Below, piece by piece: positions 25,273 to 36,498 of a stretch of DNA of 64,000 nucleotides. Position numbers and translations under genes: made by a program. This stretch comes from a virus: positions 64,001 to 128,000 of IMG/VR virus record IMGVR_UViG_3300022752_000020; one strand, written 5' to 3'. Each line of letters begins with the position of its first letter. Within the stretch, counting starts at the first letter, position 1. Below the pieces are notes generated by a model that was not told the DNA's origin, searched no databases, and was given only the letters and a program-made list of their open reading frames with translations.

Positions 25273-28200
25273 TTATGCCCTATTATAAAGATTGCCGTTA
25301 TTGGCTTTTACTGCACTTACCTGTGCTCTACCAGTCTCTTCAACCTTATTGATTAGTTTATTCATGCTACTATTTAATGATTCTAAAGTTTTAACTACAT
25401 CATCAAGAGTTTTAGTTGCTTGCTTTTCTGTACCAGTTGTACTAGTTTTCTTATCATCATTCTTTTTAGAATCTTCTTTGTCCTTATCCTCTTTCTTGGC
25501 GTCATTTTGTCTTTGTAATCTTCTTGTTTCAGCATCGCTTTGATTTTCTATAGTTTTAGCTTGACTTCTTGGCTTGGGTATAGGTAGTCCATCAGGACCC
25601 ATAGTAAAGTCGCCCATACTTAATGGTGCTACATCTGCTTGTCCCTCCTGTTCTGCTGCCTTGGGATTAGATTCACCAAAATCTACAAAATTGTTGCTCA
25701 TGGCCAAAGGTTCAGCTGCATCAAAACCTGCTACACTGGCATCACCAGGATCTGTTCCACCTATTAGATCGTTACCTGCACCATATTCATCTTCCTCAAA
25801 GCTACGATCTAGTTCTCCACCAATAGCTTCACCACCTTCACCATATTCATCTTCCTCAAATTCTTTCAACCCTGATACTTGATCTTTAAACTCTTTTAAT
25901 GCAAGTCCTATATAATCTTCTTCTGGCTCTTTAGGTAGCACTATGTCCTCACCACCTTCACCATATTCATCTTCCTCAAACTCGCCACGCTCTGGCATGT
26001 CAAACATTTCATTGAGCTCTTGCATCATAGAATCTTGTGCATCAGATATAACTTGTGATGGCATGTCAAACATTTCATTGAGCTCTTGCATCATAGAATC
26101 TTGTGCATCAGATATAACTTGTGATGGCATGTCAAACATTTCATTGAGCTCTTGCATCATAGAATCTTGTGCATCAGATATAACTTGTGATGGCATGTCA
26201 AACATTTCATTGAGCTCTTTCATCATAGAATCTTGTGCGTCAGATATAACTTGTGATGGCATGTCAAACATTTCATTGAGCTCTTGCATCATAGAATCTT
26301 GTGCATCAGATATAACTTGTGATGGCATGTCAAACATTTCATTAGTTTCTTGCATCATAGAATCTTGTGCATCAGATATAACTTGTGATGGCATGTCAAA
26401 CATTTCATTGAGCTCTTTCATCATAGAATCTTGTGCATCAGATATAACTTGTGATGGCATGTCAAACATTTCATTAGTTTCTTGCATCATAGAATCTTGT
26501 GCATCAGATATAACTTGTGATGGCATGTCAAACATTTCATTGAGCTCTTTCATCATAGAATCTTGTGCGTCAGATATAACTTGTGATGGCATGTCAAACA
26601 TTTCATTAATTTCTTGCATAAATGCTGATTGTGCAGCCACAGCAGCATCAGTCATTCCACCTACACTTTCTATTTGTGCCTCATTAGCTTTTTCTGTTTG
26701 TTCTAAAATTTTATTATCAGATTCTTTTTTAGCTATCCCAAGTGCTTCATCTAATTCTTTTTGTTGTTCTAGATTAGATTTAAGATTATTCTGAGCTCTT
26801 ATTACACCGTTTTCCGCCAACTTCAACTGTGCCTGCTCTTCTTCTGTCAGTGCTCTTTCATTAGCTAGAGCTTTTAGTCCGTCTACTTCACCTTGACGCT
26901 CTAATAGTCTTTCTTCAATTTCTGTTCTTCTCTCTGCCAATTTGTTCATTTCTTCAGTCTTGTCTCTTATACCTTGAACTGGCAGTGCTTCCTTCATATC
27001 CTCTTTGATTTTTTCACTATTAGACTTAACTTCTACCTTAGCATCAGTTAATGGCGCCACTATTAGCTTGCCCATATCTTTACTGATATTTTCAGCTTCC
27101 CTATAAGCCTGTTTCATTTCTTGATTGGCTTTTTTAAATGCTTCACTGCCTTCAATTTCTTCTTTGCTCTTGCCTTCTCTCTGCCCTTTAGCCATCATAG
27201 TGTCCATAGCTGCGCTTGCTTGATCTCCTCGTTCAGTGGCAGCTTCTTTGGCCTTGGCTAAATCGTTTATTTTTGCCTGTCTCTCCATTTGGCGTTGATA
27301 GAGTTCTTCTCGTTTCTTCTCCTGCTCTGCTTCTTCGGCATTACGACGAACTATATTATCCCCGCCACCAGTTACATTCTGTGTTTCAGTGATCATAGTC
27401 TCGGCATTTTTTAGTTTCATTCCTGTGGATTCTTCTATCTTAGGTACTGGCATTGTACCCTGTAGATCCTTAACCATATCCATGGCTTTTTGTGTATCAA
27501 ACTTTCCGTTGAATAACTCTCTTAACTTTTTCTCTTCATTCTCTAGTTTCTTAATTACTGCTTGACCTTCTGGACTATTTGGATCAACATCTTTACCATC
27601 TATAGTGACCTTCGTATTACTCTTTTTATTTTCTATAGCATTATCTACAGCACGTACACTAGCTTGGGTAGGAATTTGATTATTGAGATCTCTTTGTTTT
27701 TCCTCCCACATTTTCCTAGCTTCTGCTTCTGAAATTTTTGGAGTTTCAGATTTCTTATCTTCAGCTTTTTTGTCTTCAGCTTTTTTGTCTTCAGCTTTTT
27801 TGTCTTCAGCTTTCTTTTCAGTTGCAACTTGTACTTGTCCAAAGTTTTTAGGCCAATTAATGATTTCAACTTTGCTAGTGGTTGTTGCAATATCTTTAGC
27901 AATTTTTTGTAGATCAATTCCTGGAAGCTTTGTAGCATCACTAGTTCTAGATCCTTGTGCAGCTACCACTCTGTTCAACACATCACCTATAGCTTCTGTC
28001 CTTACATTTTGTATTAGATTTTTCTGTTGCTCAGGTGTCAGTACCATTTCACCTTTGTGTAATAAGGCCATTACATCTTTTGTTTCTATGGCTCTACCAG
28101 TTTCACCTAAAGTACCGCCAGCACGACCAGTTTCTTCTTTGGTAACCTTTAGAGTACCTACATTCATTATACCCACTTTTGCATCTTGTAGTGCTCCTTG

Positions 28201-29586
28201 TATAGCGGGTATAATGCCCTTATCATAGGCAGTAGTGACTGCTTTGGCAGTTCCTTGTGCTAGGCCTGTACCTATATCAGTAAACATTCCTACTGTACCT
28301 TCCAGTCGATCTTGTCTAGTAGCTGGACTGAATTTGCCCTTTTCTGCATCCTTCTCCTGCTGTATTCTAGCCTGATTATACCTTCTAGCAATGTCTTCAG
28401 GGTTATCCCCTGCCTTGGTCATGAGCATTGATTCACTTAATCTTCTACCTGCTTTGTCAATGTCACCGCCTTTTCTATTCAGTTCTCCTAAAGTTCTAGT
28501 AGATGCAGCAGCATTTAAATCATCTATAACAATGCCTAAAGTTCTTATACTTTGAGTAATACCTGAACGTGCCTTTTGTTCTTCTTGTATGGCTGCTACT
28601 TGTTTTTTCATAGCAGCTTCAACATCTCCGCTACCTTTGGCAACATTTTGCATACCATGATAGGCAGTGTCATTAGCCTTCATCAAATTTCTACTGGCTT
28701 CACCTGCTTCGCCGCCTGCATAGATTGATGTTTGTAAAAATGCTTTATCCTTTTGCAACTTCATAGCTTCAATACTAGCACGCTCTGTATAAACTTTTGC
28801 TAGTTCTGTATTACCTCGACTGAGCTCTGTAGCACTTTTAGCAGCATTCATACCTGCCTGACCATACATGCCCATCTGTGTCTGAGCACTTTTACTCATG
28901 GCTGTACCAGTGGCAAAATACTCCTTATATAGGTCTCCCATGCCCTTAGCAGCCATTTGAGCATAGTTATTTTTAAATTGATCTCTTGCTCTTTTCTCTG
29001 CTTCTTCACCTTGTTCCAGACCAATTAGTCTAAACTTGGCCTCTAACTTCATATCAGCTTGAGCTTTTTTGAGGTTGTCTTCTTGTTCCTTACGACTTAC
29101 ACCTGTTAATTGTGTTAACTGATCTAATTCTAATGCAAATTGAGCAGCACTGGCCGCTGCCTTAGCCTGACCTTCTTTGGTATTTTCAAATGTACTTTTT
29201 TGAAATCCTACAGTAAGAGCTAAAACTTCATTAAGTTCACCAGTAGTAAAACCCATTTGACGTAGGTTTTCTGTGAGACCACTACTATGATATACCTTGG
29301 CTAGATCTGAGAATACTTGAGTACCTTTGCTAACACTACCGCCCAAGGTGCCCATGATATCATTATTACTTTGTAGTAATTCAGCAAACTTTTCAATAGG
29401 CATGCGAGCATTGGTAGCTGCCATCTGCATCTTGATCATATCATTGCCAAAGGTATTACCCGTGACACTGAGCTGCTCAAAGGTTTGATTCATCCTCTCA
29501 ATAGGTGTTTTAGCCTTTTCAACAGTTTGACCAAACTTTCTAACACTATCTACAGCACTACCTAACATACCCTTTTCATCTGCCAT
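25273..29586 (-). CDS. Tail tape-measure / baseplate-hub-like protein (gp29-like, 1,437 aa)
   Basis: Long helical A/Q/K/E-rich protein, ALLHKGEMVLTPEQ tape-measure-type motif, 22-aa repeats; divergent from the gp26-like gene. Confidence 0.7.
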   Translation of the reverse strand: MADEKGMLGSAVDSVRKFGQTVEKAKTPIERMNQTFEQLSVTGNTFGNDMIKMQMAATNARMPIEKFAELLQSNNDIMGTLGGSVSKGTQVFSDLAKVYHSSGLTENLRQMGFTTGELNEVLALTVGFQKSTFENTKEGQAKAAASAAQFALELDQLTQLTGVSRKEQEDNLKKAQADMKLEAKFRLIGLEQGEEAEKRARDQFKNNYAQMAAKGMGDLYKEYFATGTAMSKSAQTQMGMYGQAGMNAAKSATELSRGNTELAKVYTERASIEAMKLQKDKAFLQTSIYAGGEAGEASRNLMKANDTAYHGMQNVAKGSGDVEAAMKKQVAAIQEEQKARSGITQSIRTLGIVIDDLNAAASTRTLGELNRKGGDIDKAGRRLSESMLMTKAGDNPEDIARRYNQARIQQEKDAEKGKFSPATRQDRLEGTVGMFTDIGTGLAQGTAKAVTTAYDKGIIPAIQGALQDAKVGIMNVGTLKVTKEETGRAGGTLGETGRAIETKDVMALLHKGEMVLTPEQQKNLIQNVRTEAIGDVLNRVVAAQGSRTSDATKLPGIDLQKIAKDIATTTSKVEIINWPKNFGQVQVATEKKAEDKKAEDKKAEDKKAEDKKSETPKISEAEARKMWEEKQRDLNNQIPTQASVRAVDNAIENKKSNTKVTIDGKDVDPNSPEGQAVIKKLENEEKKLRELFNGKFDTQKAMDMVKDLQGTMPVPKIEESTGMKLKNAETMITETQNVTGGGDNIVRRNAEEAEQEKKREELYQRQMERQAKINDLAKAKEAATERGDQASAAMDTMMAKGQREGKSKEEIEGSEAFKKANQEMKQAYREAENISKDMGKLIVAPLTDAKVEVKSNSEKIKEDMKEALPVQGIRDKTEEMNKLAERRTEIEERLLERQGEVDGLKALANERALTEEEQAQLKLAENGVIRAQNNLKSNLEQQKELDEALGIAKKESDNKILEQTEKANEAQIESVGGMTDAAVAAQSAFMQEINEMFDMPSQVISDAQDSMMKELNEMFDMPSQVISDAQDSMMQETNEMFDMPSQVISDAQDSMMKELNEMFDMPSQVISDAQDSMMQETNEMFDMPSQVISDAQDSMMQELNEMFDMPSQVISDAQDSMMKELNEMFDMPSQVISDAQDSMMQELNEMFDMPSQVISDAQDSMMQELNEMFDMPSQVISDAQDSMMQELNEMFDMPERGEFEEDEYGEGGEDIVLPKEPEEDYIGLALKEFKDQVSGLKEFEEDEYGEGGEAIGGELDRSFEEDEYGAGNDLIGGTDPGDASVAGFDAAEPLAMSNNFVDFGESNPKAAEQEGQADVAPLSMGDFTMGPDGLPIPKPRSQAKTIENQSDAETRRLQRQNDAKKEDKDKEDSKKNDDKKTSTTGTEKQATKTLDDVVKTLESLNSSMNKLINKVEETGRAQVSAVKANNGNLYNRA
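25993..26619 (-). repeat. 66-bp (22-aa) near-perfect coding tandem repeat, about 9.5 copies
   Basis: TGGCATGTCAAACATTTC recurs from 25993 to 26587 (594 = 9 x 66 bp); encodes MM[QK]E[LT]NEMFDMPSQVISDAQDS. Confidence 0.95.
27752..27818 (-). repeat. 15-bp coding tandem repeat (KKAED x4)
   Basis: tcttcagcttttttg units. Confidence 0.85.
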
Positions 29587-29642: not shown

Positions 29643-30482
29643 GTGATGACTGGAAATCCCTTACAAAAATACTTTCGTCAACCTAAAATCTTCATTGATT
29701 TACCCAGCAAAGGACGCTATTATGACCCTAATAGTTTAGATAAAAAGAATGATCAATTACCTATTTTTGGTATGACAGGTATGGATGAGATCATAATGAA
29801 AACTCCAGATGCTTTGTTTAGCGGTGAAGCCACAGTAAAAGTTATTGAAAGTTGCTGCCCCGCTATAAAAGATGCTTGGAAAATGCCCAGTATTGATGTA
29901 GATTGTCTATTAGTCAGTATAAGAATTGCAACATTTGGATCAAATATGAATGTGACTCATAGATGCCCAGCTTGTCAAAGTTATAACGATTATGAAATTG
30001 ATCTAAGCAAAGTATTAAGTTATCTAGGCTCACAAGAATATGACAGTGTTATAGACTGTGGTGATCTAAAAATTGTTATACGTCCTTTACGCTACGAAGA
30101 AATTACTCGATTTAACATAGAAAACTATAAGCTACAAAGAATGTTAGGTCAACTCAGTAAGATGGAAACACAGGGTGATGATGACGGTAGTATACGTAGT
30201 CAAAACGAAGTTTATCAAAAAATCAGTGACATGCAACTAAACTTGTTTCAAATCAGTGTGGAAAAAATTATTACACCAGAAGGTGAAGTCACCGACAAAA
30301 ACTTTATTGCCGAATGGATTCAAAATAGTGACAAAGAATATTTTAAATTTATTAAGAAAAAACTAGAAAGTAATAAAGCACAATGGGACGTGCCCAGTCA
30401 AGATGTTGTATGTCCTGAATGTGAACATGCCAGTAAGGTAGTTGTTACTATGGATCAAACAAGTTTTTTCGAAAAAGGCTAA
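29643..30482 (+). CDS. gp26: Baseplate hub assembly protein (gp26-like)
   Basis: NPLQKYFRQPKIFIDLPS, MTGMDEIIMKTPDAL, IDVDCLLVSIRIAT, two CxxC pairs (CPAC, CPEC) and a C-terminal FF. Confidence 0.75.
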   Translation: MMTGNPLQKYFRQPKIFIDLPSKGRYYDPNSLDKKNDQLPIFGMTGMDEIIMKTPDALFSGEATVKVIESCCPAIKDAWKMPSIDVDCLLVSIRIATFGSNMNVTHRCPACQSYNDYEIDLSKVLSYLGSQEYDSVIDCGDLKIVIRPLRYEEITRFNIENYKLQRMLGQLSKMETQGDDDGSIRSQNEVYQKISDMQLNLFQISVEKIITPEGEVTDKNFIAEWIQNSDKEYFKFIKKKLESNKAQWDVPSQDVVCPECEHASKVVVTMDQTSFFEKG

Positions 30483-30703
30483 TAACAATACCGGATTCTG
30501 ACTTAGAAGATTTCCTAAATAGCTACGATCTACACTGTAAACAAATTAAAGATGATATCTTTACCATAAGCTGGTATATGCGTGGTGGTGTCACAGCCAA
30601 CGACTTATTTCATATCTATAGCTATGAAGATCGTAATATTATGAATGGTATAATCAAAAATAATATAGAACTTACTAAGAAAAGCGGTTTACCTTTGATG
30701 TGA
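30464..30703 (+). CDS. gp51-like hub-assembly / tail-chaperone extension, probably expressed by -1 frameshift from the gp26-like gene
   Basis: Not in the ORF track. The -1 frame is open from 30437 to TGA at 30701-30703: ...IPDSDLEDFLNSYDLHCKQIKDDIFTISWYMRGGVTANDLFHIYSYEDRNIMNGIIKNNIELTKKSGLPLM. No ATG/GTG/TTG until 30578; slippery T TTT TTC at 30464-30470. Confidence 0.65.
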   Translation, partial: FFRKRLITIPDSDLEDFLNSYDLHCKQIKDDIFTISWYMRGGVTANDLFHIYSYEDRNIMNGIIKNNIELTKKSGLPLM

Positions 30704-31627
30704 TTCAAATGCAGGCAAGCTAAGATTACTAACAGTGCCAGGACGATCAGTATACCGATAAGCATCACCTACTTTAGGCAATTTATTTTTTATCTTATCC
30801 AAGGCTCCACCAATAGCACCAATTGGTCCTTTATCAATTACTTCCTTACCAAATTCTATTACCTTTTCTAATGCGTATCCTGCTGATGTAAATAAACCCA
30901 TAATTACTGGAAAAGTTTCAGCAAACCATTTTTTACCGGCATCAGTACGAAACCATGCCATGGCAGCAACTTCACCCACACGGGCAACATGTCCCAACCA
31001 ACGTCTACTAACTTCAGCAGCTCTAGGAAATCCAGTAGCCTGTATCATTTTTGCTATAGTTTTACTACCAACTTTGCCTATAGCCCCAACGACTTTGGGC
31101 ATAATAAGTCCCATAATAAATTCACCATTAAGTTTAGCCAATTGTTCTTCATAATTTGGGTCTTTAGGATCTAATGCCCATCTACTCATCAAATAGTCAT
31201 AAGTTCCATAAAGTAAACTTGCTGTTGTAGCAAATGATACACCCAAGTTAGCCAGTTTTTCTTGAGCTGCTGTAGCTGCCTGCATATTGTTCACTATAGC
31301 TGCTTGATGATTTTTTTCTCCTTGCCTTATTATAGCTTTTTTCATACTATCAATACGCCACTTACCAACAGTTGAATTTTTACTAAAGCCAATTTTATTC
31401 CACCAAGTGCCAGCATATTGTTGTGCTGCTTGTCTTTGAGCAGCTACTTGTCCAGGTATTTTAGGTATAGGAACTCGTGAAACATTTGCAGGTAGTGTAC
31501 GTGATCCACGCCATAATCCACCTAAAGCTCTAGCACCCGCACTAATCAGTTTACCAGTTCCAATAGCAGCTAACGGTATTATGAATTCATCTAATTCTTC
31601 TTCTGTCAACAATTCATTAAGTTTCAT
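30689..31627 (-). CDS. Hypothetical late protein (312 aa), possible internal head/ejected protein
   Basis: Acidic N-terminal MKLNELLTEEELDE followed by a basic, amphipathic G/A-rich body; TAAATAAATA 4 nt before the ATG. Confidence 0.55.
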   Translation of the reverse strand: MKLNELLTEEELDEFIIPLAAIGTGKLISAGARALGGLWRGSRTLPANVSRVPIPKIPGQVAAQRQAAQQYAGTWWNKIGFSKNSTVGKWRIDSMKKAIIRQGEKNHQAAIVNNMQAATAAQEKLANLGVSFATTASLLYGTYDYLMSRWALDPKDPNYEEQLAKLNGEFIMGLIMPKVVGAIGKVGSKTIAKMIQATGFPRAAEVSRRWLGHVARVGEVAAMAWFRTDAGKKWFAETFPVIMGLFTSAGYALEKVIEFGKEVIDKGPIGAIGGALDKIKNKLPKVGDAYRYTDRPGTVSNLSLPAFESHQR

Positions 31628-31642
31628 CTTATATTTATTTAG

Positions 31643-31690
31643 GAGAGTGAAGCTACGCTCACTCTTTTTTAGGACTTATCGTCCTAAAAA
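31643..31690. other. Two adjacent inverted repeats (possible terminator or processing element)
   Basis: AGAGTGA-AGCTACGC-TCACTCT and TTTTTAGGAC-TTATC-GTCCTAAAAA, next to a T-rich tract at 31691-31717. Confidence 0.55.
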
Positions 31691-31699
31691 CTTTTTTCT

Positions 31700-32069
31700 T
31701 TCTTCTTTGTTTTTTTTAATATTATGCAGATTGTGACGTCACTCTTCGCCCGTCCGAGGGCGAAAGGAACATTATGCGAGTTGCTCAGTCCATAGCATTA
31801 GTGCATTACAGAGGCGGTTGTCCGGTACCTCGAGCACAGTCTTCATACAACGGCGGTTAATATACAGTATGCTATCACTATATACTAACGTGCTGCGTTT
31901 TTACAGCGTCTTTTAGCCTTTTAATCCTGTTCAAACAGCCAAATCACGGCATTTAAGTGATCGTCATCCTTGCGGGTAGTGGCTGAGTACTCACTACGGC
32001 GGTGAGTTTTCCATCCCTGCGACTCGTGGTCCAGGTATAGGGGCACCTGAAATTGGCCGGTGCCTAGCC
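31700..32069 (-). ncRNA. Candidate large structured non-coding RNA directly downstream of the GIY-YIG gene
   Basis: ORF-free, GC-elevated ~370 nt containing at least 8 stems, a GCAA tetraloop, a 13-bp stem with G-U pairs and a 7-bp loop pseudoknot. Confidence 0.6.
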
Positions 32070-32507
32070 TTAACCGTGTAATATTTTGCCTTTGATGTGT
32101 TTGCCGTGAACTCTGACCTGAATATGCCCGTTATAATAATCGTCTGATTCTAACACTTTTCTTTCAAACTGTATTTTCGCTTCAACATAACTACATTCTG
32201 ATTTGCTGGTACAATAATATAATATTTCTCTTGTGAAATTTTCAGTGCCTAATTTGATAACATCTGCCTTGAGTTCGTCATTTGAGCCATAATAATCTTG
32301 CCAATCACTTGATACTTTGCCTCTGATTCGTTTTCTTTTCTTAGTACCATTTTTTAATTTTACTATTTTGTAACTTGTTTTTGCAAACTGAGCTAATTTT
32401 TTGCCTATATACATACGGCCTGACTGTGTATTCGTAATAAGATAAACGAAGCCTATATACTCTTCTGGAATTTCTGTAACTAATTGGCCTTGATAAGTCC
32501 ATGACAT
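32070..32507 (-). CDS. Stand-alone GIY-YIG family endonuclease (Seg-like catalytic domain)
   Basis: GFVYLITN...RMYIGKK, YYGS, FTREIL, E..IQF and YYN motifs. ATG at 32507 preferred over the TTG at 32510. Confidence 0.85.
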   Translation of the reverse strand: MSWTYQGQLVTEIPEEYIGFVYLITNTQSGRMYIGKKLAQFAKTSYKIVKLKNGTKKRKRIRGKVSSDWQDYYGSNDELKADVIKLGTENFTREILYYCTSKSECSYVEAKIQFERKVLESDDYYNGHIQVRVHGKHIKGKILHG

Positions 32508-32539: not shown

Positions 32540-33496
32540 TTATTTTACGCTATCCATCACAGCTAAAACATATTCAGCTAGTGTTCTAGTTGTGCAATGT
32601 TTTTGAAAATGTTCAAAAATTTTATTTTCTAAATCATGATATTCCTTGTGTCCCTGTTCTGTAGCATAGTATCTCATTTTATCATCATATATACCACGCA
32701 TACTAACAGCCTCTTTGATTAAGCCTTTGGGTAAAGTTTTACATACTTCAGGAGGACAACCATCTATGTCAGTGAAATATGGCAAGCATCTACAGGCCAT
32801 TATTTCATAATGACGCATACAGTCCCATCCTGCTTTTTTATAGGTTAATCCAAACAAACTTTCTCTATATCCATCATAATAATCTTGTTCTGTTTTATAT
32901 GGGTATACATAGTCTCGATATTTTTTTCCTAATGGTTTAGGCTTCATTTTTGCCTGTGCTCTAGTTTTTGGTAGAGATGTTTGAATTTTTTCTTCAGGAA
33001 AAGCAAAACTTATAGGATACATTGTTTTATTACGAAAATTTCCATACAGTTCTCTTTTAAAATATGTACCATAATCAAAAGCTTCATCAACAAAATAAGC
33101 TACTTCATCATGACCCTCTATTACTGCTATTTGTTTTTTATCGTAATATTTTATAACTTCTTTTACCAAAGGATGTATTTCGGCCACATACATACTTGTT
33201 CTAGCACTGACATAGGGTAATATAATATAATCAAAATAATTTTTTTTAACTTTCTCTAATATATCATTTTCTTCATAAGGTCCACGATAAACAGGCAAAG
33301 TTCCAAAAATAGTAAACCCCATACCATAAATTCTAGCTTTTTTAATATTTTCAAAAGTATCCATATACATAAAGTCAGTTTTAGGATAGTTTGTTAGTTC
33401 AATATTAGGCAAAAAATATAGCCCATGTAATACCATATCAGGCAAATAATCAGTGACAGCTCTTCCTAAAAAAAGTATTTTAGTTTTTTCTTTCAT
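32540..33496 (-). CDS. Glycosyltransferase-like protein (GT-B/exostosin-like C-terminus)
   Basis: DYLPDMVLHGL, YFKREL, SLFGLTYKKAGWDCMRHYEIMACRCLPYF. Confidence 0.55.
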   Translation of the reverse strand: MKEKTKILFLGRAVTDYLPDMVLHGLYFLPNIELTNYPKTDFMYMDTFENIKKARIYGMGFTIFGTLPVYRGPYEENDILEKVKKNYFDYIILPYVSARTSMYVAEIHPLVKEVIKYYDKKQIAVIEGHDEVAYFVDEAFDYGTYFKRELYGNFRNKTMYPISFAFPEEKIQTSLPKTRAQAKMKPKPLGKKYRDYVYPYKTEQDYYDGYRESLFGLTYKKAGWDCMRHYEIMACRCLPYFTDIDGCPPEVCKTLPKGLIKEAVSMRGIYDDKMRYYATEQGHKEYHDLENKIFEHFQKHCTTRTLAEYVLAVMDSVK

Positions 33497-33722
33497 TTTT
33501 TTGTTTTTTCCTTTCTGCTTTTTCTCTATCTATTTGATAACGCCATTGCATGATTACTTCACGACGTTCTATAGCAATATGCCTAATTTCACTGAGCCAT
33601 TTTCTTGTTTTCAACCCTGCTCTTCGTGTGCCTTTATCAATCCATTCTTGATTGGCCTTGTAATATTGCCTAAATGCATCCATTAAACGATCATGGAGTT
33701 CTTCATCACGTGGAGGTTTCAA
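33480..33722 (-). CDS. Small basic helical protein, Hc1 (histone H1-like) family resemblance
   Basis: KGTRRAGLKTRKWLSEIRHIAIERR resembles the Hc1-type KGNKAAGTRARK..L motif. Confidence 0.45.
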   Translation of the reverse strand: MKPPRDEELHDRLMDAFRQYYKANQEWIDKGTRRAGLKTRKWLSEIRHIAIERREVIMQWRYQIDREKAERKKQKNERKN

Positions 33723-35491
33723 TCCCTAATCTCCAAGTCATTGGCATAACTGGTATATCCATTTTCTTTAATAACTTTTAATACATTATTTACACGACCA
33801 ACTAGTTCATCCTTATGACTGATCAAATATATATTCTTATTACGTTCTCTGGCCATTTTCTTTAATACTGCTAGAGCACTTTCTACCCCACTGGCATCCA
33901 AACCATTGTCAATAAGTTCGTCAATAAACAACAGATTAATATTCTGATATAGGCTTTCCCATACATCTCTAAATGCCCAACTTAACCCTAAAATTAATCT
34001 ATTACGTTCACCTCTACTTAAATTGTCAAAGTCTAAATCTTGTCCTAATTGAGTAATTTCTACATTAAGATCATTTAAAAAACTAACTTGATGAGGTAGT
34101 CCCATACGATCCAAATAATAACTCAACCTATTATTCAAGTAGGCCAAGTTTTGATCAATGATCTTTTTACGAATAAAACTATCCTTACTGGTCAATAACT
34201 TAAGTAAAAATTCCTGATGTTCTTTTAAACTGTTAAGCTCATTGATTTGATCCCAACTGATTTCCTGCATGGCAGTACTACGCAATTCGTCTATCTGTTC
34301 TTGATAAGGATCCCGTTCTTCACTACGATTCAATAAGGTCTTTTCCAGTGTAGTAAGATTATTTTGATGTTTTAATGCTTGTTCCACAGTGTCATAAAAT
34401 GTTTGAGGTCTGCCATTTATGTTGCCAATCTCATCTAATTCTGCTACCACATTAATTAATTTAAAATCTACATTGTTAAGATAAGTTTGTGCCTCATCTA
34501 AATTCTTTTTAGCCTCAGCTATCAAATCATCATGTATATGCCCTGGCAAGTTTTGATCACATTTGGAACATTTATTATTGGCTAACTTTTCTAATTCAAC
34601 AGTATAATTTTTAACACTACGTTCAGCCTGATTAACAGCAGTTTCTAATGTGGCCTTTTCCTTATTCAAACTATTAATACGAGCACTCTGTTCCAGATAA
34701 TTTTTTAATTTATCATGTTGTTCTAGTTCTTGTTCAATATCGATACTCTGTAGTTCTAAAATACTTTTAGCAATCTTTTCTAAATCTTGCTCTTGTTGAC
34801 TGAGCCAAGCACGTTGTTTAGAATGTAGACTGTTTATACTTTGTTCAATACGTTCATTGCTGCGTTTGGCTGCTTCAATGTTAGCAGATTCTTGCTGTAT
34901 AGCATCTTTAGTTTCTTTTATTTGATTTTTTAAACTTTCACTTTTATCACTGAGCAAGGTAATACCCAGTAACTGCTCAATGATCATACGTTGATCCGCA
35001 GCCCTCATGCTTAGAAATGGCTCTGTGTATGTGTTCAATGCCACAATATGCTTAAACATATCATGGCTCATACCCAATAGTTCATCTAAATCTTTCTGTG
35101 TTTCTCTTACATCACCTTGACTTTCATCAATGACTTCTTGTTCTAAGCCATTGACAAAAAATTTAAACACATTAGGCCTACGTCCACGCTCAATGCGATA
35201 TTCAACACCATTCTTTTCAAAGTTTAACTTGACCAACATGGCTTTGCCATTAGTCTTATTGACCAAGTTATCTTTCTTAATGTTGGTTAATGCTTGGCCG
35301 TAGAGCGCATAACTTAGAGCATTGACGATTGTGGTTTTCCCGGTACCATTACGGCTTCCTGAATCATCACCTCCTTGATCTAAATTTTCGCCTAATACTA
35401 AAGTTAATTGCTCTCGGCCGAAGTCGACGGCTTGGGTATTATTACCCACGCTCATAAAATTCTTAACACTAAGATCCTGTATCTTAATCAT
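33719..35491 (-). CDS. gp46: Recombination endonuclease ATPase subunit (Rad50/SbcC-like)
   Basis: Walker A NGTGKTT, coiled coil with CSKC hook, signature LSRGE, Walker B LLFIDE, ISH. Confidence 0.95.
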   Translation of the reverse strand: MIKIQDLSVKNFMSVGNNTQAVDFGREQLTLVLGENLDQGGDDSGSRNGTGKTTIVNALSYALYGQALTNIKKDNLVNKTNGKAMLVKLNFEKNGVEYRIERGRRPNVFKFFVNGLEQEVIDESQGDVRETQKDLDELLGMSHDMFKHIVALNTYTEPFLSMRAADQRMIIEQLLGITLLSDKSESLKNQIKETKDAIQQESANIEAAKRSNERIEQSINSLHSKQRAWLSQQEQDLEKIAKSILELQSIDIEQELEQHDKLKNYLEQSARINSLNKEKATLETAVNQAERSVKNYTVELEKLANNKCSKCDQNLPGHIHDDLIAEAKKNLDEAQTYLNNVDFKLINVVAELDEIGNINGRPQTFYDTVEQALKHQNNLTTLEKTLLNRSEERDPYQEQIDELRSTAMQEISWDQINELNSLKEHQEFLLKLLTSKDSFIRKKIIDQNLAYLNNRLSYYLDRMGLPHQVSFLNDLNVEITQLGQDLDFDNLSRGERNRLILGLSWAFRDVWESLYQNINLLFIDELIDNGLDASGVESALAVLKKMARERNKNIYLISHKDELVGRVNNVLKVIKENGYTSYANDLEIRD

Positions 35492-36498
35492 AAATTGTTA
35501 TAAATGTCCATTAATAGTTTAACATTGTAGGTATCACTCTCTACACTGGTCAGTTGATTCATTACAATTTGATCTACACTTTCAAATTGTTTAATTTCCA
35601 AATCACTATCGAATTCAATCTCACGTTTTTCAGGTATCAAGGTTAACTCCCTAATTTCGTATTTGTTAAAAAATTCTTCTTTAATATGACCACTTTCTTC
35701 ATAACTGATATCTACATCTAATAATACTCTTAGGTGTTGTTTAGGTTTTATTATACGCTCTTGTTCATCTATAAGTTGAGTCAATTTGATAGTTCTGAAT
35801 GTAGGTTGAGCAGGCCAAGCGTGATATTCTGGATCACCTCCCCATTCTAAAATCATCATGCCTCGGTCATCATCCCAAGCATCCGCATAGTTATGTGGAA
35901 ATGCGTTGCCAATATAGTGCATGTTCTGTTTATTTTGGCGTTTATGAAAATGTCCACTCAACCCAAGTTCATATTTTTTAAATTGAGCCAGTTGTATCTC
36001 ACCGTGATCAGGCATCTGTACCATGGCATTCATATAAAAACTAGGCAGTTCAAAATGACCAAATATATAACGGGCATCTTTCTTGCCCACAGTTTTCCAC
36101 TCTTCACCTACAAGCCAAGGACACATAATAACTTCGCCTAATGTCATAGGCTGATGCACTACTGTGATCCCTGGTATATATTTGCCAAACTCTACACTAT
36201 GGATATCTCGTTTATCTTTATAATAGAGATCATGATTACCAGGAAAGAAAAAGAACTGGTCAAATGCCCTGCCCAGTTTTTCCAAAGCTCTAAGACTATA
36301 ATCCATAGTAACAATATTAAGACTGTTTCGGTTATGATGCCAATCACCCAAAAAGAATCCGGTATCACATCCATTCTTTTTAGCAGTGGCAATAAACCAA
36401 TCTACAAAATCTTCACAGTCTTGATTATGTGTTTGGCTATTTGATTTTAGACCAAAGTGTATGTCTGTAAAAAATGCTGCCTTTTTGAATAAGCTCAT
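35488..36498 (-). CDS. gp47: Recombination endonuclease nuclease subunit (Mre11/SbcD-like)
   Basis: TDIHFG, LGDWHH, GNHD, GHFE and SGHFH phosphoesterase motifs. Confidence 0.95.
   Translation of the reverse strand: MSLFKKAAFFTDIHFGLKSNSQTHNQDCEDFVDWFIATAKKNGCDTGFFLGDWHHNRNSLNIVTMDYSLRALEKLGRAFDQFFFFPGNHDLYYKDKRDIHSVEFGKYIPGITVVHQPMTLGEVIMCPWLVGEEWKTVGKKDARYIFGHFELPSFYMNAMVQMPDHGEIQLAQFKKYELGLSGHFHKRQNKQNMHYIGNAFPHNYADAWDDDRGMMILEWGGDPEYHAWPAQPTFRTIKLTQLIDEQERIIKPKQHLRVLLDVDISYEESGHIKEEFFNKYEIRELTLIPEKREIEFDSDLEIKQFESVDQIVMNQLTSVESDTYNVKLLMDIYNNL

What the first reader, a model, noticed from the sequence alone, without database searches (positions are those of the whole stretch)
31700..32069. 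Large, pseudoknotted non-coding RNA candidate immediately downstream of a minimal GIY-YIG nuclease
Seen (minus strand, starting right after the stop codon): GGCACC/GGUGCC (32064-32042); CCUG-GAC/GUC-CAGG; ACUCAC/GUGAGU (32007-31989); CAGCCA/UGGCUG (31985-31936) enclosing CC-GCAA-GG and AUCAC/GUGAU; GCUG/CAGC; a 13-bp stem with two G-U pairs (31889-31856) whose loop AUAGCAU is complementary to AUGCUAU at 31798-31792; GUGC/GCAC enclosing GAGG/CCUC and CGG-ACAA-CCG; UUCGCCC/GGGCGAA (31764-31745) flanked by two GCAUAAU copies. It is the longest ORF-free gap in the window. The G-U pairs work only on the minus strand, favouring an RNA. The nuclease (~145 aa) lacks the C-terminal DNA-binding domains of typical Seg/I-TevI enzymes and has a basic KKRKRIRGK insert. 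Inference: an undescribed nuclease-RNA ribonucleoprotein (RNA supplying specificity or inhibition), a ribozyme, or an origin-associated RNA.
Basis: partly seen in the sequence, partly recalled or inferred. Interest (0 to 1): 0.78.

Follow-up and report, generated by a model that had tools for sequence, protein, structure and literature searches.

The report
Full-length Polynucleobacter-1 twin-box phage RNA
The gene-free stretch behind a small nuclease gene of this uncultured lake phage encodes a real, knotted non-coding RNA of about 426 bases: its first third is an orphan RNA motif catalogued in 2010, the rest is uncatalogued and carries one 7-letter word twice, and full-length relatives also sit without the nuclease in chromosomes of the probable host, so its still-unknown job does not depend on that nuclease.

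Summary
Window 31644-32069 (minus strand) encodes a ~426-nt structured RNA. Covariation supports the structure: 92% of cells pair, against 75% in shuffles and 36-42% in slid controls; 52 of 65 pairs show compensatory changes; both pseudoknots covary.

The first 136 nt are Rfam RF01718 (Polynucleobacter-1, 105 bits). Its position behind this gene family was reported in 2010. The remaining ~290 nt is absent from Rfam and from the papers I could search. It holds two identical 7-mers (GCAUAAU). These are identical in 179 of 180 phage relatives, through at least 51 joint changes.

This scan found the same "twin-box" RNA before on other genomes.

New here:
- Full-length relatives lie in bacterial chromosomes (13 of 121 Polynucleobacter-genus genomes). 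They sit in an integrase-bearing island with no GIY-YIG gene.
- In one phage, a PD-(D/E)XK nuclease replaces the GIY-YIG gene.
- No nuclease residue tracks the 7-mer, and the basic segment is family-wide.
- No partner for the 7-mers turned up in cis, in conserved phage DNA or in phage tRNAs.
- The 7-mers change at ordinary rates.

The nuclease-RNA particle idea is therefore weakened. The RNA looks like an autonomous RNA of mobile elements, function unknown.

The parts
31644..32069 (-). Whole structured RNA (~426 nt), from the base after the nuclease stop codon to the last 3' hairpin
   Evidence: Conserved end to end in relatives. GC is 0.44-0.49 against ~0.31-0.35 in the flanks. Covariation.
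31933..32068 (-). 5' domain = Rfam RF01718 Polynucleobacter-1
   Evidence: 105.2 bits against a gathering score of 37, model positions 1-141, E 9e-22.
32055..32069 (-). 5' pseudoknot: tail 32069-32066 pairs with the loop of hairpin 1 at 32058-32055
   Evidence: 88.5% paired; GC<->AU compensation in two of four pairs.
31856..31889 (-). 13-bp hairpin whose loop (31875-31869) forms a pseudoknot
   Evidence: 13 of 13 pairs show compensatory changes (helix 9).
31792..31798 (-). 3' strand of the loop pseudoknot (AUGCUAU)
   Evidence: 6 of 7 pairs covary, 97.6% paired (helix 10).
31801..31837 (-). Three-tier helix around the invariant GGUACCGGA..ACCGCC core
   Evidence: helices 11-13. The core is invariant in 37 sequences.
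31771..31777 (-). Box 1 (GCAUAAU), preceded by ACUC, in the loop of a hairpin closed by 31791-31788 / 31770-31767
31745..31764 (-). Hairpin between the boxes (UUCGCCC/GGGCGAA)
   Evidence: 172 of 176 distinct relatives fold to one hairpin; 26 stem sequences.
31721..31727 (-). Box 2 (GCAUAAU), preceded by AUCU, apparently single-stranded
   Evidence: Identical to box 1 in 72 of 72, 71 of 80 (the other nine are chance pattern matches) and 179 of 180 relatives.
31691..31717 (-). Purine-rich tract (26 of 27 bases are A or G)
   Evidence: Read from the sequence. A purine-rich tract at this place recurs in phage and chromosomal relatives.
31644..31690 (-). Two 3' hairpins (31690-31666 and 31665-31644); relatives have a GA-rich GNRA hairpin plus a terminator-like hairpin here
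32070..32507 (-). SegE-type GIY-YIG nuclease gene, 145 aa, catalytic domain only
   Evidence: PF19835 E 1.8e-32. AlphaFold pLDDT 92; best folds are the I-TevI catalytic domain 1LN0/1MK0. Catalytic motifs are conserved.
32540..36498 (-). Upstream genes of the same tightly packed string: Metallophos/gp47-like, SMC/gp46-like, 80-aa and 318-aa proteins
   Evidence: Starts and stops overlap.
31632..31639 (-). AATAAATA late-promoter-like word before the next gene (30689-31627)
   Evidence: 57-74% of ATAAATA copies in four related phage genomes lie 8-70 nt upstream of ORF starts, a 19-28x enrichment.

Best explanation
Shown: the interval is most of a ~426-nt, doubly pseudoknotted non-coding RNA. It is the full-length form of the orphan Rfam motif Polynucleobacter-1. 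It is present once per genome in uncultured freshwater T4-like jumbo phages. Full-length relatives lie in an integrase-bearing island in chromosomes of Polynucleobacter-type bacteria, the probable hosts. Inferred: in the phage it is made as the 3' tail of the gp47/gp46-...-nuclease transcript. The reasons are that it always starts 0-40 nt after whichever stop codon comes last and has no conserved promoter of its own. In the island it has its own conserved upstream block, so it is a free-standing RNA gene there. Most likely mechanism (inferred, not shown): it acts in trans as a folded scaffold. It displays two copies of one 7-nt word, one in a hairpin loop and one in a single-stranded linker, to a single kind of reader. 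Both words must therefore stay the same while the word itself is free to change. Its function belongs to the infection cycle of these mobile elements. It does not require the GIY-YIG nuclease.
For: Identity and structure. Extent beyond Rfam and conservation. One copy per complete 350-kb genome. Start right after the last stop codon even when other ORFs are inserted. Twin words identical in 179 of 180 through at least 51 joint changes, while linkers 4 nt away are not homogenised. Box 1 lies in a loop closed by a covarying stem. Independence from the nuclease: chromosomal full-length relatives with no PF19835 gene; nuclease swapped for PF24608; no nuclease column predicts the word (best accuracy 0.70 against a 0.54 baseline; proteins 96.5% identical carry different words). 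The island copy has a conserved upstream block and neighbours typical of an integrative element.
Against: There is no transcript evidence of any kind; the metagenome contigs were all at least 1.2 kb, so they could not show transcript ends. No reader was found. There is no complement in cis, none in conserved DNA of six phage genomes (0 of 51 alignable sites) and none in phage tRNAs. The word is not enriched in the genome. A/G switches at two word positions would be neutral for pairing to U, yet the two copies still agree, which fits simple Watson-Crick reading poorly. Within T4-like phages the RNA follows the nuclease gene in 58 of 62 cases, so a functional tie to that gene is not excluded. 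Three of 15 chromosomal copies have unequal words.
Confidence: 0.4

Rival explanations
1. Nuclease-RNA particle. The RNA binds the small GIY-YIG nuclease, which lacks a DNA-binding domain. It either aims the nuclease, with the two 7-mers reading two half-sites or the two strands, or holds it inactive.
For: Tight linkage in T4-like phages: 18 of 20 and 58 of 62, and adjacency kept even when the order is reversed (L094). The nuclease is a bare catalytic domain with a long basic beta-hairpin arm. In L104 another small nuclease fills the slot and the RNA is kept.
Against: Full-length RNA occurs in bacterial chromosomes with no such nuclease and behind an unrelated ORF in L097/L155. Hundreds of phages have the nuclease without the RNA. 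No protein column tracks the word. The long basic segment is not tied to the RNA. A 7-nt word occurs 10-116 further times in the phage's own genome, too often for a stand-alone guide. There is no spacer-like hypervariable segment.
Confidence: 0.15
2. Cis-acting 3'-UTR element. The fold protects the operon mRNA from 3' exonucleases, ends early or middle transcription before the late genes, or couples translation termination to RNA folding.
For: It always lies at the 3' end of the gene string, 0-40 nt after a stop codon and before a late-promoter-like word or a convergent gene. It ends in hairpins.
Against: About 350 nt of invariant unpaired bases, two pseudoknots and matched words are far more than protection or termination needs. 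The chromosomal relatives are free-standing, with an upstream gene that is divergent. The window's 3' hairpins lack a U tail on the RNA strand.
Confidence: 0.12
3. Identity is required by a copying or strand-transfer step, or the words act at the DNA level. Examples are a nascent strand made at one word re-pairing at the other, an origin or primer RNA with a purine-rich R-loop tract, or paired recombination or iteron-like sites that must match each other but not any fixed sequence.
For: There is an identity-but-not-sequence constraint with no complementary partner found. Joint changes occur at ordinary single-column rates. A purine-rich tract follows box 2 in phage and island copies. The island carries a tyrosine recombinase and a clamp-loader-like ATPase.
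Against: Helices with G-U pairs and compensatory changes show selection on the RNA. No reverse transcriptase or recombinase lies near the phage copy. The words are 50-65 bp apart, too close for ordinary site-specific recombination. No one-box or three-box variants were seen.
Confidence: 0.08
4. A ribozyme (self-processing or other catalysis).
For: Its size, two pseudoknots and many invariant unpaired bases resemble catalytic RNAs.
Against: It matches no ribozyme, intron, RNase P or tmRNA model. It does not interrupt a gene, and the flanking genes differ between relatives.
Confidence: 0.05

Closest known systems
Polynucleobacter-1 RNA motif (Rfam RF01718; Weinberg et al. 2010, PMC2864571)
   Same: The first 136 nt match the whole 141-position model at 105 bits. 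The position downstream of the GOS11034 / PSSM2_218 gene family and the occurrence in Polynucleobacter are as described in 2010.
   Different: The catalogued motif is one third of the RNA. The ~290-nt 3' part, the second pseudoknot, the twin words and the sub-families whose 5' domain the Rfam model misses (L055 and L042 types) are not in Rfam. The 2010 paper found none in purified phage; here it lies on 350-kb complete phage genomes.
HEARO / omega RNA of IscB, and TnpB reRNA (nuclease-associated guide RNAs)
   Same: A large structured RNA encoded next to a small nuclease gene, first seen as an orphan motif in the same 2010 survey.
   Different: There is no 16-20-nt variable guide and no transposon ends. 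The RNA occurs without the nuclease, and the words are 7 nt and duplicated. Works-like: unproven. Member: no.
Immunity RNAs of P1/P7 (c4) and P4 (CI), which act on two short repeated target boxes
   Same: Mobile-element RNAs in which two short direct repeats must keep the same sequence and differ between related elements (from established knowledge of these systems).
   Different: In those systems the complementary loops lie in the same transcript. Here no complement exists in cis. This RNA is several times larger.
GOLLD and ROOL (large ornate RNAs often carried by phages)
   Same: Large, multi-pseudoknotted, function-unknown RNAs on phage genomes and related bacterial DNA.
   Different: There is no sequence or model match. 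This RNA is smaller, has a different genomic setting (end of a recombination-nuclease operon rather than tRNA clusters) and has twin words.
I-TevI / T4 Seg free-standing GIY-YIG homing endonucleases
   Same: The nuclease has the I-TevI-type catalytic fold and motifs.
   Different: It has no DNA-binding domain. It holds a fixed syntenic position next to gp46/gp47 rather than a sporadic one. In one relative a PD-(D/E)XK nuclease replaces it.

Membership tests
Rfam RF01718 Polynucleobacter-1 | Score at or above the curated gathering score with the family covariance model, over the full model | tested here: met
   105.2 bits against 37; model positions 1-141 of 141.
Rfam RF01718 Polynucleobacter-1 | Consensus helices kept by compensatory changes | tested here: met
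   Helices 1-7 (80-100% paired, most with changes on both sides). Pseudoknot.
Rfam RF01718 Polynucleobacter-1 | Lies downstream of the GOS11034 / PSSM2_218-like gene (2010 description) | tested here: met
   PSSM2_218 is a 40.8%-identical homologue of the window's nuclease. 58 of 62 RNA-seeded loci have the gene upstream.
Rfam RF01718 Polynucleobacter-1 | Occurs in Polynucleobacter and in fresh-water samples | tested here: met
   13 of 121 genomes of the genus of two Polynucleobacter MAGs. Sample types of the phage contigs were not told.
Guide RNA of an RNA-guided nuclease (OMEGA / CRISPR type) | A variable guide segment of about 16 nt or more next to a conserved scaffold | tested here: not met
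   The only matched variable elements are two 7-mers with about 18 states in phages. The word recurs 10-116 times in the phage's own genome.
Guide RNA of an RNA-guided nuclease (OMEGA / CRISPR type) | Obligate co-occurrence of the RNA and its nuclease | tested here: not met
   RNA without the nuclease in bacterial chromosomes and in L097/L155. Nuclease without the RNA in cultured phages.
Guide RNA of an RNA-guided nuclease (OMEGA / CRISPR type) | RNA-dependent, sequence-programmed cleavage | not testable with these tools
   Needs biochemistry.
Free-standing GIY-YIG homing endonuclease (Seg / I-TevI type) | GIY-YIG catalytic domain with intact motifs | tested here: met
   PF19835. Invariant Y22, Y33-I34-G35, R93, E109, N126. 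I-TevI fold.
Free-standing GIY-YIG homing endonuclease (Seg / I-TevI type) | C-terminal DNA-binding domain(s) | tested here: not met
   145 aa; the domain covers residues 4-130; the model shows a single domain plus a beta-hairpin arm.
Free-standing GIY-YIG homing endonuclease (Seg / I-TevI type) | Sporadic, mobile distribution between otherwise collinear genomes | tested here: inconclusive
   In the RNA-bearing phages the gene keeps one syntenic place near gp46/gp47, with other cargo genes coming and going around it. In other phages it sits near the nrd genes.
Group I intron, RNase P RNA, tmRNA, 6S RNA, known ribozymes | Match to the family model | tested here: not met
   Nothing besides RF01718 appears at E up to 10 in the region. 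ARAGORN finds nothing.

The most novel reading that the evidence does not exclude
The RNA is shared between T4-like jumbo phages and a chromosomal island of their Polynucleobacter hosts. The island carries a small tyrosine recombinase, a clamp-loader-like ATPase and DUF6641, and its RNA gene sits behind a word resembling the phages' late promoter. On this reading the island is a satellite or defence element wired to phage infection, and the matched 7-nt words are specificity (immunity-group-like) determinants in a phage-island conflict, read by a mechanism that demands identity of the two copies.
Probability: 0.12. Interest if true: 0.85.

Novelty: new variant of a known kind. Interest (0 to 1): 0.62.

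Why it matters
Large, intricately folded bacterial and phage RNAs of unknown function are few, and each one solved so far has revealed new biology; HEARO, from the same 2010 survey, became the guide RNA of IscB. This work shows three things. An orphan motif catalogued as 141 nt is really the head of a ~430-nt RNA with two pseudoknots. That RNA carries an unusual constraint: two direct copies of a word that must be equal but may be almost anything. It lives both in 350-kb lake phages and in a chromosomal island of the abundant freshwater genus Polynucleobacter. The last point separates the RNA from the nuclease gene beside it. It names a probable host for phages that have never been cultured. 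It also gives a culturable organism in which the RNA can be deleted, tagged and sequenced.

Tried and rejected
1. A copy of AGGCACCG upstream of the nuclease start looked like a long-range partner of hairpin 1. It does not recur or covary in relatives, so it is chance.
2. Intron reading: the flanking genes are complete, differ between relatives and can be convergent. Rejected.
3. Cis partner of the 7-mer: no position holds a wobble-tolerant complement consistently. The best mutual-information partner of each variable position is the same position of the other box.
4. The word as a promoter or operator: not enriched. 11 copies against 17.6 expected in the window; no consistent excess in six genomes.
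5. Trans partner in phage DNA: 290 extra word copies, 51 of them in alignable regions, and none whose homologue carries the other genome's own word.
6. Phage tRNAs as partner: no.
7. The nuclease as base-specific reader: no tracking column.
8. The basic 'insert' as an RNA-binding adaptation: RNA-linked proteins of L116, L132, L110 and L125 have the short form.
9. 'Fast-evolving' words: 28, 8, 16 and 13 changes at the four variable positions, against a column median of 16. Ordinary.
10. Plain gene conversion: the variable linkers 4 nt from the words are not homogenised.
11. Cultured phage carrying the RNA: none. No blastn match with two queries, and no pattern match in five complete genomes.
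12. Transcript ends from assembled metagenomes: all contigs are at least 1.2 kb, so this was uninformative.
13. A protein partner shared by phage and island: only generic AAA+ clamp-loader similarity at 24-31% identity.
14. Island genes driven by phage late promoters: conserved NATAAATA-like words exist, but their density is not above chance. This is a lead only.
15. Sequence search of the nuclease against solved structures found nothing significant. The fold search gave I-TevI.

Full report
WHAT IS THERE

The window is part of a 159,920-base IMG/VR virus record. Its genes are T4-like: a baseplate hub at 29643-30482, an SMC/gp46-like ATPase at 33719-35491 and a Metallophos/gp47-like protein at 35488-36498. 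On the minus strand a tight gene string runs gp47-like, gp46-like, an 80-aa protein, a 318-aa protein and a 145-aa GIY-YIG nuclease (32507-32070). Then comes the longest ORF-free gap in the window, 31628-32069. After it lie an AATAAATA word and the next gene (31627-30689).

CHECK OF THE OBSERVATION

The minus strand folds well below shuffled sequence (-112.6 kcal/mol against -93.6 +/- 5.4; z -3.5). The plus strand does not (z -0.65).

I aligned the window RNA with 36 distinct relatives. I then tested an explicit structure derived from the window sequence.
- 92.0% of cells form standard pairs. Shuffling gives 75.1%; sliding the partners gives 36-42%.
- 52 of 65 pairs show changes on both sides.
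- All 13 pairs of the long hairpin covary, as do 6 of 7 pairs of the pseudoknot between its loop and 31798-31792.
- A further pseudoknot, between the first four bases and the loop of hairpin 1, is 88.5% paired with GC<->AU swaps.
- MAFFT misaligned the hairpin between the two GCAUAAU copies. Folded sequence by sequence, it forms in 172 of 176 distinct relatives with 26 stem sequences.

WHAT IS KNOWN ABOUT IT

Rfam's Polynucleobacter-1 model (RF01718) matches 31933-32068 over its full length at 105 bits. The 2010 description says most examples lie downstream of gene family GOS11034, which resembles P-SSM2 locus PSSM2_218, and that none was seen in a purified phage. PSSM2_218 is a homologue of the window's nuclease. 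It is often mislabelled 'NAD synthetase'. So the motif and its link to this gene family are not new.

I found no later paper on the motif. Nothing else in Rfam matches the remaining 290 nt.

WHAT IS NEW RELATIVE TO THE LITERATURE

Conservation does not stop at the Rfam boundary.
- In 80 viral contigs found through the nuclease, a ~300-nt 3' domain follows the Rfam domain directly. 61 of these are full-length by strict criteria.
- Some relatives have 5' domains that the Rfam model misses, yet they keep the 3' module.
- Each of three complete or near-complete ~350-kb genomes holds exactly one copy.

The 3' module reads ACUC-[7 nt]...hairpin...GUGAC...AUCU-[7 nt]. The two 7-mers are identical in:
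- 72 of 72 protein-seeded loci;
- 71 of 80 pattern-seeded loci, where the other nine are chance hits;
- 179 of 180 RNAs carrying the conserved core.

On a tree built without the words, the word changes at least 51 times. Per position the rate is ordinary for this RNA (28, 8, 16 and 13 changes against a column median of 16). I therefore do not support the 'fast-evolving' label given in earlier notes. The variable linkers 4 nt away are not homogenised, which argues against plain gene conversion. Box 1 lies in a hairpin loop closed by a covarying stem. Box 2 appears single-stranded.

This scan had already found this 'twin-box' RNA on other genomes. I reached the same reading independently before looking.

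THE NUCLEASE

The protein matches PF19835 (SegE-type GIY-YIG), and the model has pLDDT 92. Its best structural matches are the I-TevI catalytic domain. The catalytic motifs are invariant. It has no DNA-binding domain.

The basic segment forms a beta-hairpin arm and is a family-wide feature. A version 6-8 residues longer occurs in many RNA-linked proteins. However, L116, L132, L110 and L125 have the short form and still have the RNA.

LINKAGE

Seeding on the RNA instead of the protein, 58 of 62 evaluable loci have the nuclease gene upstream on the same strand. The exceptions and variations are informative.
- In several phages, one to three other ORFs (radical-SAM-like, SGNH-like and others) lie between the nuclease gene and the RNA. 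The RNA stays at the end of the string, right after the last stop codon.
- In L094 the order is reversed.
- In L104 a PD-(D/E)XK nuclease (PF24608) takes the GIY-YIG place.
- In L097/L155 the RNA follows an unrelated ORF.

Cultured phages with the nuclease lack the RNA.

THE NEW CONTEXT

A search of bacterial genomes found RF01718 in 13 of 121 genomes of the genus that includes two Polynucleobacter MAGs. Many copies lie deep inside ~2-Mb contigs, and two genomes have two copies each. Only 3 of 150 further genomes across the order have it.

These chromosomal copies are full-length relatives. They have:
- the Rfam domain;
- a long 3' domain with the loop pseudoknot;
- the same ACUC-[7]...hairpin...AUCU-[7] module, with other words (AGCGAAA, AUCAAAA, AGAGAAA, GGAGAAA, GGCGAAA);
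- a purine-rich tract;
- the GA-rich GNRA hairpin and a terminal hairpin.

The words are equal in 12 of 15 distinct copies. No GIY-YIG gene lies within 10 kb. PF19835 is absent from five such genomes, while the same search finds it in the phage.

The setting looks like an integrative element. It contains a divergent DUF6641 gene, the RNA behind a conserved upstream block, a variable cargo slot, a 188-aa tyrosine recombinase, unknown proteins and a clamp-loader-like AAA+ ATPase. Apart from generic AAA+ similarity, no island protein has a phage homologue.

The upstream block contains TATAAATA in two copies and GCTAAATA in eight. ATAAATA behaves as the late promoter in the related phages. Whether the island RNA is driven by phage late transcription remains only a lead.

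All searches were negative.
- No complement in cis.
- No enrichment of the word.
- No co-varying site in conserved DNA of six phage genomes with six different words.
- No phage tRNA.
- No nuclease residue.

INTERPRETATION

Shown: this is a real, large, pseudoknotted RNA. It is the full-length form of Polynucleobacter-1. It is carried by T4-like lake phages and by a chromosomal island of their probable hosts. It has a strict identity constraint on two 7-nt words.

Inferred:
- In the phage it is made as the 3' tail of the nuclease operon.
- It acts in trans as a scaffold that shows both words to one reader encoded elsewhere.
- It does not need the GIY-YIG nuclease.

The nuclease-particle idea, a cis-acting UTR role, a copying or DNA-level role and a ribozyme remain as rivals with lower odds. 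None can be settled without expression data and biochemistry. The island-bearing Polynucleobacter strains now offer a culturable system for both.

Noticed in passing
L413-L422 (chromosomal loci of Polynucleobacter-genus genomes), e.g. L415:9141-13661: A recurrent island: DUF6641 (PF20346), the RNA, a variable cargo ORF, a 188-aa catalytic-domain-only tyrosine recombinase (PF00589), two unknown ~250-290-aa proteins and a 220-239-aa clamp-loader-like AAA+ ATPase. It is present in about 11% of genomes of the genus, and twice in two genomes. It could be a phage satellite or a defence island.
   Followed up: partly
L104:6475-6987 (-): In one 192-kb phage contig, a PD-(D/E)XK endonuclease (PF24608) sits where the GIY-YIG gene normally is, and the RNA is kept downstream. 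This is a non-orthologous swap of one small nuclease for another.
   Followed up: partly
L028, L033, L059, L064, L080 between the nuclease gene and the RNA; L028:1973-2986: The neighbourhood of the nuclease gene is a cargo hotspot. Radical-SAM/SPASM-like (337-366 aa), SGNH-like (277-280 aa) and other ORFs come and go between otherwise collinear phages.
   Followed up: partly
L340 (metagenome contig JACCDT010568555.1): This is the only phage-type RNA of 180 whose two words differ (AGAUAAU against GGAUAAU, one position). It is either a caught intermediate or an assembly mixture.
   Followed up: no
window 25273-29586 (-): A 1437-aa protein with about ten tandem copies of a 22-residue unit (NEMFDMPSQVISDAQDSMMQEL), next to the baseplate genes. 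Probably a tape-measure or fibre-like structural protein.
   Followed up: no
window 33480-33722 (-) and the matching ORFs in L055, L068: An 80-aa basic protein is conserved just upstream of the nuclease gene or its cargo neighbours in many relatives. Pfam and PHROGs give no match.
   Followed up: no
L002 (Melnitz phage) and L004 (phage C48C1): In these cultured phages the homologous small GIY-YIG gene lies just downstream of the ribonucleotide reductase genes. From memory of the T4 map, that is where T4 keeps denA (endonuclease II). This may hint that the family is a housekeeping nuclease rather than a homing enzyme.
   Followed up: no
L097:1459-2560 and L155: A twin-box RNA (word ACAUCAA) lies in a different phage background, behind an unannotated 173-aa ORF, with no GIY-YIG gene in the flanks.
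   Followed up: partly
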